64,000 bases of DNA, from positions 66,172 to 130,171 of IMG/VR virus record IMGVR_UViG_3300046328_000506; one strand, 5' to 3'. A model generated the notes under the pieces. That model did not search any database, was not told the origin of the DNA, and saw only the letters and a program-made list of their open reading frames with translations. How positions within the stretch are numbered: the first letter of the stretch is position 1; every line of letters starts with the position of its first letter. Positions 25,349 through 26,991 of this stretch are shown here, one piece after another. This DNA comes from a virus. Position numbers and translations under genes: made by a program.

Positions 25349-26991
25349 ATGAAGTGTACTATTTTATTTTTTGCAGGTATTGACAAAGAAACAAGGGAAT
25401 ATACCAAAGAATCTTATGTTTGTGATTTTCCTTTAAAATTTGGATTTGGTTCTTTTAACGAGGATAGCATTATTAAAAATATACCTAAAAAGATATTTGT
25501 CAAAGATATTATATCTATTGACTTAATAGATTAATAAAGAATATTGAGAATGTTAGAGTTCTCTATTCTTTTAAAATATAAAATACCTTGACTCAGTCAT
25601 TTCAAACATTTTTACTATTCAACAGTAAAACGTGTAAGAAAATATAACGGTGTCGTCATAGGTGTTTGTGTCTATTTTTAGTCTACTCTAACAAATAATT
25701 TAGGCTTGTCTAAACTTTTGTTTTGGTTTATCTAATCTTTTTCTTATTAAATACCTTGACACAGGGAAATCTCACATTTAATCATTTAAAAACATGTTAG
25801 TTATATATAGAGGAATACTTTCTTTTGCTGATTTAAGAGAATTAAGCAAAGAGTCTGACATCTCCAACAGACAATACTTGATAAAAGTAATTGGGGAAAC
25901 TATGGAAACATTTTTTGTTACCAAAGAAGATTACGAATCATTTCGTAGTGGACTCTCTACATCTGATAGAGGTACATATTGGTTTGAGATGGGATATTAG
26001 TTTAGGTGTTCTTAAAACACCTCTGTCGTTTATATGCACTATGGAGTATCTTACTAACGTAAGATACGTGTATAAACCTGATGAAATAAGTATCTAACGA
26101 CACTTAGGGGATAACCCGAAACAGTAACCATAAATTTTCTTAATTTTACATTTTCAAATACTAAATAATATAAATATCATGGAAGAAACATTAGTAATAA
26201 ATGGTATAACTTATGGAGAAGTTGTATCGGAGTTTACAGCGTTAAGCAAATATACTGGCGAATCAATTTCTGTTGAAGGTGTTGAATTTAATCAGTACGA
26301 AAATGGGAAAATTGAAACTCCTATTGGCTACGACACTATTGATGGTGAAGATTGCACTATTTGGGGTAGTCGTTATCCTGTATCATTGTAAAGGCAAATT
26401 TTAACTTAGAAAAATATGACACAAGAAGTATTTATTGACGAACAAGGGAATGTGATTCTTAATAGAGAAACATTTGAACCAAAGCCAAACGAGAAATTTG
26501 GCAATCCATATCGTGAAAATGGGGAATTGCACGTATCTTTTACTTTTGAAGGAGGGCATGATTATCCTATGTTTTATTCTTCAATAGAAGAGCTTAGTGC
26601 CATCAAACAATGGTATTGGGAAAGCTAAATAAAACTTAAACTTGCAAATTTATATTAGATTATTCTTCTTTTAGAACTATCTATTGTATATTTGCAAGTT
26701 GATTTTAACTTAAAAGACGAACTCGTTACGTCATTAAAGAAGCGAGATAAAATGCCATTATTTTCAAGCCAAGTAATTGGCTATTTTAACAATGAGTACG
26801 GGAGTGCTTATTGTGATATTTACTGCTCAGATAATTTGTCAGAGCAACAAATGGAAGAGATTCATCAGAATCATCTTCAAAACGGTGATGTGTATCGCCA
26901 ATGTACTTTTATGAGTCTTGTAGAGGCTCGTAAAATGTGGAAAGAAAATCCACAGTACATAGAACTATTTGAATCCTTTTGGGAAAAATAG
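25349..26991 (+). other. Small early ORFs (25349-25534, 25794-26000, 26179-26391, 26416-26628, about 26752-26991)
   Basis: Co-oriented 60-100 aa ORFs with A/T-rich leaders. Confidence 0.6.
26023..26124 (+). ncRNA. Type III hammerhead ribozyme with an extra hairpin inserted before stem II
   Basis: CUG-UC cleavage triplet region 26023-27; stem I gtttatat/gtataaac; CUGAUGA 26078-84; stem II ggg-ataa-ccc; GAAA-CAG 26118-24 pairs back to CUG-U. Confidence 0.75.

What the first reader, a model, noticed from the sequence alone, without database searches (positions are those of the whole stretch)
26023..26124. Variant type III hammerhead ribozyme with an extra hairpin in the catalytic core
Seen: all core nucleotides are present (GUC with predicted cleavage after 26027, CUGAUGA, GAAA) and stems I-III close. 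A hairpin (taagt...actta, 26087-26106) is inserted between A9 and stem II, and stem I carries a 9-bp hairpin. Both added hairpins have cUAACg at the tip. The inserted hairpin contains aacgaca (26096-26102), the exact complement of tgtcgtt spanning the cleavage site, so an alternative self-inhibited fold is possible. Known: an extra nucleotide at this core position occurs in a natural viroid hammerhead. Inference: a switchable processing site between two early ORFs.
Basis: partly seen in the sequence, partly recalled or inferred. Interest (0 to 1): 0.75.

Follow-up and report, generated by a model that had tools for sequence, protein, structure and literature searches.

The report
Hammerhead ribozyme with inserted fourth hairpin
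A gap between two small genes of an uncultured lake-water phage holds every signature of a self-cutting hammerhead RNA, but with an extra hairpin wedged into its catalytic core where published surveys report at most one or two added bases; whether it still cuts has not been tested.

Summary
Window 26023-26124 (+) carries GUC, CUGAUGA and GAAA, three helices that close on them in type III order, and a 22-23-nt insert between A9 and stem II that folds into its own hairpin.

It is not a chance look-alike. A relaxed hammerhead descriptor hits only this site in the window. In 1516 shuffled windows it gave 165 sites, and 0 of 165 had the four consensus identities the candidate has, or a stem I of 10 bp or more. 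The element lies in a 178-nt gap on the coding strand of a phage operon, 4.1 kb upstream of an Rfam-grade twister-P3 ribozyme in a similar gap.

No Rfam hammerhead model detects it. I found no relative anywhere, so there is no covariation, and no RNA data.

The self-inhibited alternative fold exists and is nearly isoenergetic (-26.0 against -26.5 kcal/mol), but it is only weakly beyond chance.

Verdict: very probably a hammerhead-derived element and a new structural variant. Activity is unproven: about 0.6 that it cuts, about 0.27 that it is a disabled relic. Earlier notes of this scan report hairpins inside hammerhead cores on other DNA (giant phages). I checked one only in part.

The parts
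25794..26000 (+). Upstream small ORF (68 aa). Its stop codon lies 27 nt before the predicted cut.
   Evidence: ORF listing. Only itself was found among 5.8 billion proteins.
26004..26022 (+). 7-bp hairpin (AGGUGUU-CUUAA-AACACCU) that directly abuts stem III. It would become the 3'-terminal hairpin of the upstream cleavage product.
   Evidence: Terminator-like scan. Present in the folds.
26023..26027 (+). Stem III 5' strand CUGU (16.4-16.1) plus C17. The predicted scissile bond is 26027/26028.
   Evidence: Sequence, MFE fold, descriptor.
26028..26077 (+). Stem I: a 10-bp basal helix, an 8-nt one-sided internal loop (ACUAUGGA), then a 9-bp hairpin capped by C-UAAC-G.
   Evidence: MFE fold. The distal hairpin has pairing probability about 1.0.
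26078..26084 (+). Core strand C3-A9, CUGAUGA.
   Evidence: Sequence, descriptor.
26085..26106 (+). The insert between A9 and G10.1: linker AA, then a hairpin (5 bp, bulged A, 2 bp, loop UAAC, bulged C). It contains AACGACA (26096-26102), complementary to 26024-26030.
   Evidence: Sequence, fold, alternative fold and pairing probabilities.
26107..26117 (+). Stem II: GGG/CCC with loop GAUAA. The alternative register G26108-G26110 has probability 0.15. The G10.1-C11.1 pair is kept.
   Evidence: Pairing probabilities 0.75 against 0.15.
26118..26124 (+). G12 A13 A14, then the stem III 3' strand ACAG (A15.1 pairs with U16.1 at 26026).
   Evidence: Sequence, fold.
26179..26391 (+). Downstream small ORF (70 aa). 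It starts 151 nt after the predicted cut.
   Evidence: ORF listing. Only itself was found among 5.8 billion proteins.
30163..30230 (+). Type-P3 twister ribozyme in the 147-nt gap between ORFs 29721-30104 and 30252-30551. Same strand and same gene block. This is context, not part of the hammerhead.
   Evidence: Rfam RF03154, 49.0 bits (gathering 39.9), E 1.6e-7. Gene map.

Best explanation
This is a hammerhead-class self-cleaving element in type III order that has become a four-helix junction. A 22-23-nt insert (AA linker plus a hairpin) sits between A9 and G10.1. It lies in the 178-nt spacer between two small genes of a long rightward operon of an uncultured, roughly 30%-GC freshwater phage.

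Proposed mechanism (inferred): as the operon RNA is made, stem I forms first, then the insert hairpin, stem II and the short stem III. The core then cuts after C26027. The upstream message ends in the 26004-26022 hairpin plus CUGUC with a 2',3'-cyclic phosphate. The downstream message starts with a 5'-OH G buried in the very stable stem I. One long transcript becomes separately stable pieces, as proposed for hammerheads and twisters in phage operons.

The insert is tolerated because it leaves the stack as a separate helix, much as the single extra A10 of CChMVd is extruded. With stem II only 3 bp long, the insert may also supply the tertiary brace that loop II normally gives (speculative).

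Shown: the motif, the fold, that it is not a chance match, and its context. Inferred: cleavage, the ends, and the role of the insert.
For: (1) All core letters and three closing helices are present, and the unconstrained MFE gives the four-helix fold.

(2) It is the only descriptor hit in the window. 0 of 165 chance sites from 1516 shuffled windows had the four consensus identities U7, G10.1-C11.1, C15.2-G16.2 and C17, and 0 of 165 had a stem I of 10 bp or more.

(3) It is intergenic, on the coding strand, 23 nt after one ORF and 55 nt before the next.

(4) A bona fide twister-P3 lies 4.1 kb downstream in an equivalent gap of the same gene block. Passages read in PMC6765202 say bacterial self-cleaving ribozymes are often close to each other and near phage genes. 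Passages read in PMC3088659 say hammerheads flank genes in prophage operons and cut about 2-kb polycistronic constructs in vitro.

(5) The insert forms its own tidy hairpin with 3 or fewer unpaired flanking nt. Only 11 of 165 chance sites did so.

(6) One extra nucleotide at exactly this junction is tolerated in CChMVd (PMC3705267, passage read).

(7) In growing-transcript folds, stem I has P 0.85 before the insert exists.
Against: - No Rfam hammerhead model reports it, even at E up to 10 on 351 nt, at E up to 5 on the window, or with RF00008 on the whole genome.
- No relative was found, so there is no covariation and no sign that selection keeps the design.
[quoted passage not shown] The A9/G10.1 backbone also lies at the metal site near the scissile phosphate (recalled, not from a call). 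A helix there could well kill catalysis.
- Stem II is only 3 bp and stem III only 4 bp. No loop-loop or pseudoknot contact is evident (my inspection).
- With longer 5' context the hammerhead fold is not the MFE: -34.3 against -37.4 kcal/mol for 25990-26140, and -41.5 against -46.2 for 25960-26178. Stem III probability then drops to about 0.
Confidence: 0.45

Rival explanations
1. Disabled relic. A once-canonical type III hammerhead was hit by a recent 22-nt insertion, possibly a local partial duplication of the stem I hairpin, which wrecked the A9/G10.1 junction. The rest looks perfect only because there has been too little time to decay.
For: - The insert shares AGUAUCU.AAC (9 of 10 letters) and the identical C-UAAC-G tip with the stem I hairpin, 26045-26054 against 26089-26098. 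This is as expected of a local duplication.
- Published alignments have no such insertion (PMC10085705 passage).
- PMC3088659 passages report that even one- or two-nt core insertions (A6a, G2a/C2b) cut activity strongly under standard conditions.
- It is a singleton with no relatives.
Against: - The insert is not a plain copy. Its 3' half differs from that of the stem I hairpin and pairs with its own 5' half in a new register, giving a tidy separate hairpin. Only 11 of 165 chance sites did this.
- My rough estimate puts a 9-of-10 ungapped match between two roughly 30-nt stretches of this composition at about 0.06 by chance (own arithmetic, no call), so the duplication is not established.
- Every other hammerhead feature is intact.
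Confidence: 0.27
2. Switchable, self-inhibited hammerhead. The insert toggles between its own hairpin (ribozyme ON) and a 7-bp helix with the cleavage site, UGUCGUU/AACGACA (OFF). This gates processing between the two ORFs.
For: - The exact 7-nt complement spans the scissile bond.
- The enforced alternative fold has -26.0 against -26.5 kcal/mol, and both have pairing probabilities of about 0.38.
- In the alternative fold, part of CUGAUGA is also paired.
- A complement of 7 nt or more arises in only 12 of 500 shuffles of the insert.
Against: - 12 of 500 is a post-hoc 2.4%.
- The real insert lowers stem I probability no more than 11.8% of shuffles do, and stem III probability is at the median.
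- Stem I forms before the insert is transcribed, and the alternative helix stays at P 0.29 or below at every transcript length tested. The ON fold therefore comes first and nothing obvious would hold it OFF.
- No ligand pocket, partner or trigger is identifiable.
Confidence: 0.15
3. Not hammerhead-derived at all. It is a set of mRNA-stabilising or terminator-like hairpins, or a protein-binding element, that happens to contain the hammerhead letters.
For: - The minus strand folds as well as the plus strand.
- The surrounding 7 kb is unusually rich in hairpins: 13 terminator-like sites against 2.1 expected.
- There is no Rfam hit.
- The two identical C-UAAC-G tips could be a protein or RNA recognition motif.
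Against: - The joint occurrence of CUGAUGA, C-GAAAC, GUC and three helices closing exactly on them was never reproduced in 1516 shuffled windows (0 of 165 sites).
- CTAACG itself is not enriched in the window: 13 against 8.5 expected, and 6 of 100 shuffles reach 13.
- A true twister nearby raises the prior for a second ribozyme.
Confidence: 0.1

Closest known systems
Type III hammerhead ribozymes of phages and prophages (Rfam RF00008; survey PMC3088659, passages read)
   Same: Order of elements: stem III strand, GUC, stem I hairpin, CUGAUGA, stem II hairpin, GAAA, stem III strand. Consensus identities U7, G10.1-C11.1, C15.2-G16.2 and C17. Intergenic position inside a phage operon.
   Different: - A 22-23-nt hairpin-forming insert lies between A9 and G10.1.
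- Stem I is very long (10 bp plus a 9-bp extension).
- Stem II is only 3 bp.
- No recognisable loop I/loop II contact or pseudoknot.
- It scores below report level with RF00008.
CChMVd (+) hammerhead with the extra A10 (De la Pena and Flores 2001, seen only as described in the review PMC3705267, passage read)
   Same: Extra material at exactly the same junction, between the conserved A9 and G10.1, in a type III hammerhead that still cleaves.
   Different: One nucleotide there against 22-23 nt forming a helix here. A viroid RNA there against a DNA phage transcript here.
Core-insertion variants HHmeta/HHphage (G2a, C2b) and A6a, U13a in PMC3088659 (passages read)
   Same: Natural hammerheads with added core nucleotides, one of them in a phage early transcript whose mapped 5' end lies within three nucleotides of the ribozyme's cleavage site.
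   Different: Their insertions are 1-2 nt and at other junctions (near C3/stem I, after A6, inside GAAA). Several need extreme Mg2+ or salt.
Hammerhead-like elements with hairpins between A9 and GAAA in giant phages
   Same: CUGAUGA followed by several small hairpins before C-GAAAC. The stem III hairpin, the GUA site and stem I close in type I order. It is also invisible to Rfam.
   Different: - Type I, not type III.
- The hairpins have T-loop-like loops.
- In PaBG the first four letters after A9 (GUGG) can also pair with the last four before GAAA (CCAC). It may therefore be an ordinary stem II with a large branched loop (my reading).
- No such long-range stem II is possible in the present element.
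- blastn found only PaBG itself (2 records), so I did not verify its reported conservation.

Membership tests
Hammerhead ribozyme class (any type) | Conserved core strand C3-U4-G5-A6-N7-G8-A9 | tested here: met
   CUGAUGA at 26078-26084.
Hammerhead ribozyme class (any type) | G12-A13-A14 followed by the A15.1-U16.1 pair | tested here: met
   GAAA at 26118-26121. A26121 pairs with U26026.
Hammerhead ribozyme class (any type) | Cleavage triplet N-U-H (H not G), directly between stems III and I | tested here: met
   GUC at 26025-26027. Stem I starts at 26028.
Hammerhead ribozyme class (any type) | Three helices I, II and III closing directly on the core | tested here: inconclusive
   Stems I (10 bp) and III (4 bp) close directly. 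Stem II closes directly on G12, but on the A9 side it is separated by 22-23 nt.
Hammerhead ribozyme class (any type) | No more than one or two inserted nucleotides between CUGAnGA and its adjacent stems (as stated for all known alignments in PMC10085705) | tested here: not met
   The insert 26085-26106 is 22 nt, or 23 nt in the other stem II register. The paper passage was read.
Hammerhead ribozyme class (any type) | Tertiary contact between stems I and II (loop-loop or pseudoknot) | tested here: inconclusive
   Inspection found no complement longer than 3 nt between loop II (GAUAA) or the insert loop and the stem I internal loop (ACUAUGGA). Non-Watson-Crick contacts cannot be judged from sequence.
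Hammerhead ribozyme class (any type) | Covariation in the stems among relatives | not testable with these tools
   No relative was found. Both flanking ORFs have no relatives. One distant viral contig was found by terminase. Five RNA pattern scans gave 0 hammerhead-like hits.
Hammerhead ribozyme class (any type) | Site-specific self-cleavage giving 2',3'-cyclic phosphate and 5'-OH ends | not testable with these tools
   No RNA run holds the stretch. The contigs laid do not cover 25992-26155.
Rfam RF00008 Hammerhead_3 (and the other Rfam hammerhead models) | Covariance-model score at or above the gathering cut-off (48.5 bits for RF00008) | tested here: not met
   No hammerhead family was reported at gathering, at E up to 10 on 25900-26250, or at E up to 5 on the window. 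RF00008 on the whole 130-kb record gave only an unrelated 15.9-bit match elsewhere.

The most novel reading that the evidence does not exclude
A genuine four-helix hammerhead. The helix inserted at the A9/G10.1 junction is a working part of an active ribozyme. It would replace the usual loop I/loop II brace, since stem II is only 3 bp, and/or act as a built-in mask of the cleavage site.

That would overturn the working assumption that the CUGAnGA block and its neighbouring stems cannot be interrupted (PMC10085705). It would also mean that current hammerhead models and descriptors systematically miss a class of phage ribozymes.
Probability: 0.3. Interest if true: 0.8.

Novelty: new variant of a known kind. 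Interest (0 to 1): 0.6.

Why it matters
The hammerhead is the best-studied small ribozyme, and its searches and permutation theory assume that the core blocks are contiguous. A natural, active hammerhead with a whole helix inserted next to A9, beside the catalytic metal site, would do three things.

- It would show that the core tolerates a four-way junction.
- It would give a natural scaffold for allosteric designs at a new position.
- It would imply that covariance models and descriptors under-count phage ribozymes.

It also adds a hammerhead-plus-twister pair to the picture of phage operons cut into gene-sized messages. If instead the insert kills activity, it is a rare snapshot of ribozyme loss. 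One simple in vitro transcription experiment decides between these.

Tried and rejected
**Rfam.** No hammerhead was reported at gathering or at permissive thresholds. The rest of the phage genome (L002-L005) has no ribozyme at E up to 1.

**Second copy.** My covariance model R1 finds only the element itself (134.9 bits) in the window plus L002-L006. The next hit is 13.0 bits at E 1.1.

**Relatives by neighbouring genes.**
- ORF 26179-26391 has no relative in viral contigs and only itself among 5.8 billion proteins.
- ORF 25794-26000 has only itself.
- Terminase gives 1 distant contig at 23% identity.
- blastn of 25500-27000 against GenBank phages gave no match.

**Relatives by RNA pattern.**

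| Scan | Stretches | Hammerhead-like |
|---|---|---|
| Core plus GGG-N5-CCC-GAAAC, viral | 7 | 0 of 7 (folds and descriptor) |
| Both CUAACG loops plus core, viral | 12 | only two 15.9-bit R1 matches lacking GAAA; descriptor hits only in a coding tandem repeat (L021/L022) |
| Junction letters with free stems, viral | 0 | - |
| Junction letters with free stems, metagenomes | 14 | 0 of 14 |
| Junction letters with free stems, genomes | 13 | 0 of 13 |
| Stem I base plus core, any stem II, viral | 12 | 0 of 12 |

**Insert-type hammerheads near other twisters.** A twister-core pattern gave 19 viral stretches. The descriptor over all 19 (165,873 bases) gave one weak repeated site and one odd site in L060. 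The L060 site does not fold better than shuffles (z 0.16). Rfam on 16 of the 19 (L061, L063 and L064 were dropped for the size limit) gave 6 twister-P3, 1 twister-P5 and 1 Hammerhead_II.

**Sequencing runs.** 8 freshwater DNA runs were listed and no RNA holder was listed. Contigs of 4 runs leave 25992-26155 uncovered, so there is no strain variation and no ends.

**Other checks.**
- CTAACG as a genome-wide motif: 13 against 8.5 expected, not enriched.
- PaBG lead: the element was located and folded, but blastn finds only PaBG itself, so its conservation was not verified.

**Papers.** Searches found no paper describing a hairpin between A9 and stem II. This covers only the held library. The supplements of PMC3088659 (variant figures S6/S7, descriptors) and of PMC10085705 were closed and could bear on the claim.
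Full report
**What is there**

The window is the right-hand 64 kb of a 130,171-nt IMG/VR virus record (CheckV 76% complete). GC is about 26-31%. The record has portal, large terminase, ribonucleotide reductase, DNA polymerase and helicase genes. Runs that hold it are freshwater metagenomes.

From about 19984 onward all plausible genes are on the + strand. They are small, and their starts lack Shine-Dalgarno-like sequences.

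The finding sits in the 178-nt gap between ORF 25794-26000 (68 aa) and ORF 26179-26391 (70 aa).

Reading:
- GUC lies at 26025-26027 and CUGAUGA at 26078-26084.
- GAAA lies at 26118-26121.
- Stem III is CUGU/ACAG (26023-26026/26121-26124).
- Stem I is 26028-26037/26068-26077. It continues past an 8-nt one-sided loop into a 9-bp hairpin.
- Stem II is GGG/CCC with loop GAUAA.
- Between A9 and stem II lie AA plus a hairpin (26087-26106).
- Both accessory hairpins end in C-UAAC-G.
- AACGACA (26096-26102) is the exact complement of UGUCGUU (26024-26030), which spans the predicted cut.

The unconstrained MFE of 26015-26130 gives exactly this four-helix junction: -26.5 kcal/mol, z -2.51, 4 of 200 shuffles as good. 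The minus strand folds as well (z -2.91). Stability alone therefore does not choose the strand.

**Chance**

I wrote a deliberately loose type III descriptor: U16.1, H17 not G, stems I/II/III of at least 5/3/4 bp, CUGANGA, GAAA, and 0-30 free nucleotides after A9. On both strands of the window it hits only this site.

Two shuffle runs agree on the chance rate:
- 300 shuffles gave 0.107 sites per window.
- 1516 first-order Markov shuffles gave 165 sites, 0.109 per window.

| Feature among the 165 chance sites | Count |
|---|---|
| G10.1-C11.1 | 5 |
| C15.2-G16.2 | 14 |
| C17 | 33 |
| U7 | 59 |
| All four identities | 0 |
| Stem I of 7 bp or more | 22 |
| Stem I of 10 bp or more | 0 |
| Insert forming its own hairpin with 3 or fewer loose nt | 11 |

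The candidate has every one of these features. Multiplying the fractions, which assumes independence, puts a match this good at roughly 1e-8 per window (my arithmetic). That stays negligible even over the roughly 250,000 windows of the scan.

**Context**

Rfam finds a type-P3 twister ribozyme at 30163-30230 on the same strand (49.0 bits, gathering 39.9, E 1.6e-7). It lies in the 147-nt gap between ORFs 29721-30104 and 30252-30551.

Passages I read say the following:
- Bacterial self-cleaving ribozymes are often close to each other and to phage genes (PMC6765202).
- Hammerheads commonly flank single genes or short gene blocks in prophages.
- Such arrangements cut about 2-kb polycistronic constructs in vitro (PMC3088659).

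A hammerhead 4.1 kb from a twister in a phage operon is therefore the expected company.

**What fails**

- No Rfam hammerhead model reports the site at gathering, at E up to 10 on 351 nt, or at E up to 5 on the window.
- RF00008 over the whole record gives only an unrelated 15.9-bit match. Matches at E up to 10, none over the cut-off, also turn up in 7 of 14 control genomes.
- I found no relative. Both flanking ORFs match only themselves among 5.8 billion proteins.
- Terminase finds one contig at 23% identity.
- My model R1 finds no second copy.
- Six collection scans with patterns of decreasing specificity returned 7, 12, 0, 14, 13 and 12 stretches. None has hammerhead architecture.
- No RNA run was listed, and the contigs laid do not cover the site.

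So there is no covariation and no end mapping.

**The insert**

[quoted passage not shown] That paper builds its permutation scheme on this.

PMC3088659 describes 1-2-nt core insertions at other junctions, several of which lower activity sharply. CChMVd carries one extra A10 at exactly this junction and still cleaves (PMC3705267). A 22-23-nt helix here is therefore outside what I could find in print. Supplements were closed.

The insert shares AGUAUCU.AAC (9 of 10) and the C-UAAC-G tip with the stem I hairpin. This hints at a local duplication or a shared motif. Its 3' half is different, though, and pairs with its own 5' half in a new register.

UAAC belongs, as I recall without a call, to the UMAC tetraloops, which mimic GNRA loops. 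With stem II only 3 bp, a docking role for the insert is conceivable but untested.

**The switch idea**

Enforcing the UGUCGUU/AACGACA helix gives -26.0 kcal/mol against -26.5 for the hammerhead fold. Both have pairing probabilities near 0.38.

Against the idea:
- A complement of 7 nt or more arises in 12 of 500 shuffles of the insert.
- The real insert depresses stem I probability less than 11.8% of shuffles do.
- The real insert leaves stem III at the median.
- In growing transcripts stem I is already formed (P 0.85) before the insert exists.
- The alternative helix never exceeds P 0.29 at any transcript length tested.

The bistability is real but only weakly beyond chance, and the cleavage-competent fold should form first.

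Caveat: with more 5' context the hammerhead fold is 3-5 kcal/mol above the MFE, and the 4-bp stem III is predicted to be mostly open. Part of the competing pairing uses the upstream stop-codon region, which ribosomes would keep open (inference).

**Mechanism proposed**

Cleavage after C26027 would leave the upstream message ending in the 7-bp hairpin 26004-26022 plus CUGUC with a cyclic phosphate. The downstream message would begin with a 5'-OH inside a very stable stem I, 151 nt before the next start codon.

This matches the processing role proposed for phage hammerheads and twisters. All of it is inferred.

**Earlier notes of this scan**

Two unchecked notes (e1-5321206, e1-5321197) report hammerheads with T-loop hairpins in the core of giant phages such as PaBG.

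I located the PaBG element (KF147891, about 121549-121659). It has CUGAUGA, three small hairpins, C-GAAAC, a stem III hairpin, GUA and a closing stem I. It is also missed by Rfam.

There, however, GUGG right after A9 can pair with CCAC right before GAAA. It may simply be a normal stem II with a branched loop (my reading). blastn found no relatives beyond PaBG itself. In the present element no such long-range stem II is possible, so it is the cleaner case of a true core insertion.

**Verdict**

| Reading | Probability |
|---|---|
| Hammerhead-derived element | about 0.9 |
| Cuts, plainly | 0.45 |
| Cuts, as a switch | 0.15 |
| Relic disabled by the insert | 0.27 |
| Unrelated structure | 0.1 |

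It should not be filed as a member of RF00008. It works like, or derives from, a type III hammerhead and is a new structural variant.

Noticed in passing
window 30163-30230 (+): Type-P3 twister ribozyme (RF03154, 49.0 bits against gathering 39.9). It lies in the gap between ORFs 29721-30104 and 30252-30551, starting 59 nt after the stop and ending 22 nt before the next start.
   Followed up: partly
window 32625-32698 and 32933-33004 (+): Two phage tRNA genes, tRNA-Gln (UUG) and tRNA-Met (CAU), in a 578-nt ORF-free gap of the same gene block.
   Followed up: no
window 24000-31000: Hairpin-rich region: 13 terminator-like stem-loops against 2.1 +/- 1.3 in shuffles. There are long ORF-free gaps, for example 1364 nt between 26991 and 28356. 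First-stage notes propose HDV-like and tRNA-like RNAs here. The whole-window Rfam scan at E up to 5 reported no HDV-type family, and only a weak 22.2-bit oddity at 27558-27620 on the minus strand.
   Followed up: partly
window 19984-33600 (+): Gene starts are preceded by A/T-rich sequence with no Shine-Dalgarno-like motif. This would fit a host such as Bacteroidota. That is an inference only; the host was not determined.
   Followed up: no
window 17545-19494 (-): A 649-aa ORF whose residues 96-423 match a ribonucleotide-reductase family (phrog_12229) and whose residues 418-646 match the reductase small subunit (phrog_86). It lies next to a 911-aa large-subunit gene whose match is split in two stretches. 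This may be a fusion or an inserted element.
   Followed up: no
L060 8852-8950 (+) (IMGVR_UViG_3300027653_000012): Hammerhead-like site with GUC, a 6-bp stem I, CUGAUGA, GAAAC and a 6-bp stem III. In place of stem II it has a 58-nt A-rich stretch holding what looks like a ribosome-binding site and a start codon. It does not fold better than shuffles (z 0.16).
   Followed up: partly
L027 1490-1582 (+) = Pseudomonas phage PaBG KF147891 about 121559-121651: Type I hammerhead-like element with three small hairpins between CUGAUGA and C-GAAAC. It is not annotated and not found by Rfam. A canonical long-range stem II (GUGG/CCAC) is also possible.
   Followed up: partly
L054 2166-2235 (+) (IMGVR_UViG_3300001528_000680): A Hammerhead_II match (41 bits, gathering 37) lies 7.3 kb from a twister-core pattern match at 9555-9574 on the same viral contig.
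   Followed up: no
G000:C1:22182-22235 (-), outside the window (L093): Weak RF00008 match (15.9 bits, E 0.107, below the 48.5-bit cut-off). Matches at E up to 10, none over the cut-off, also occur in 7 of 14 control genomes.
   Followed up: no
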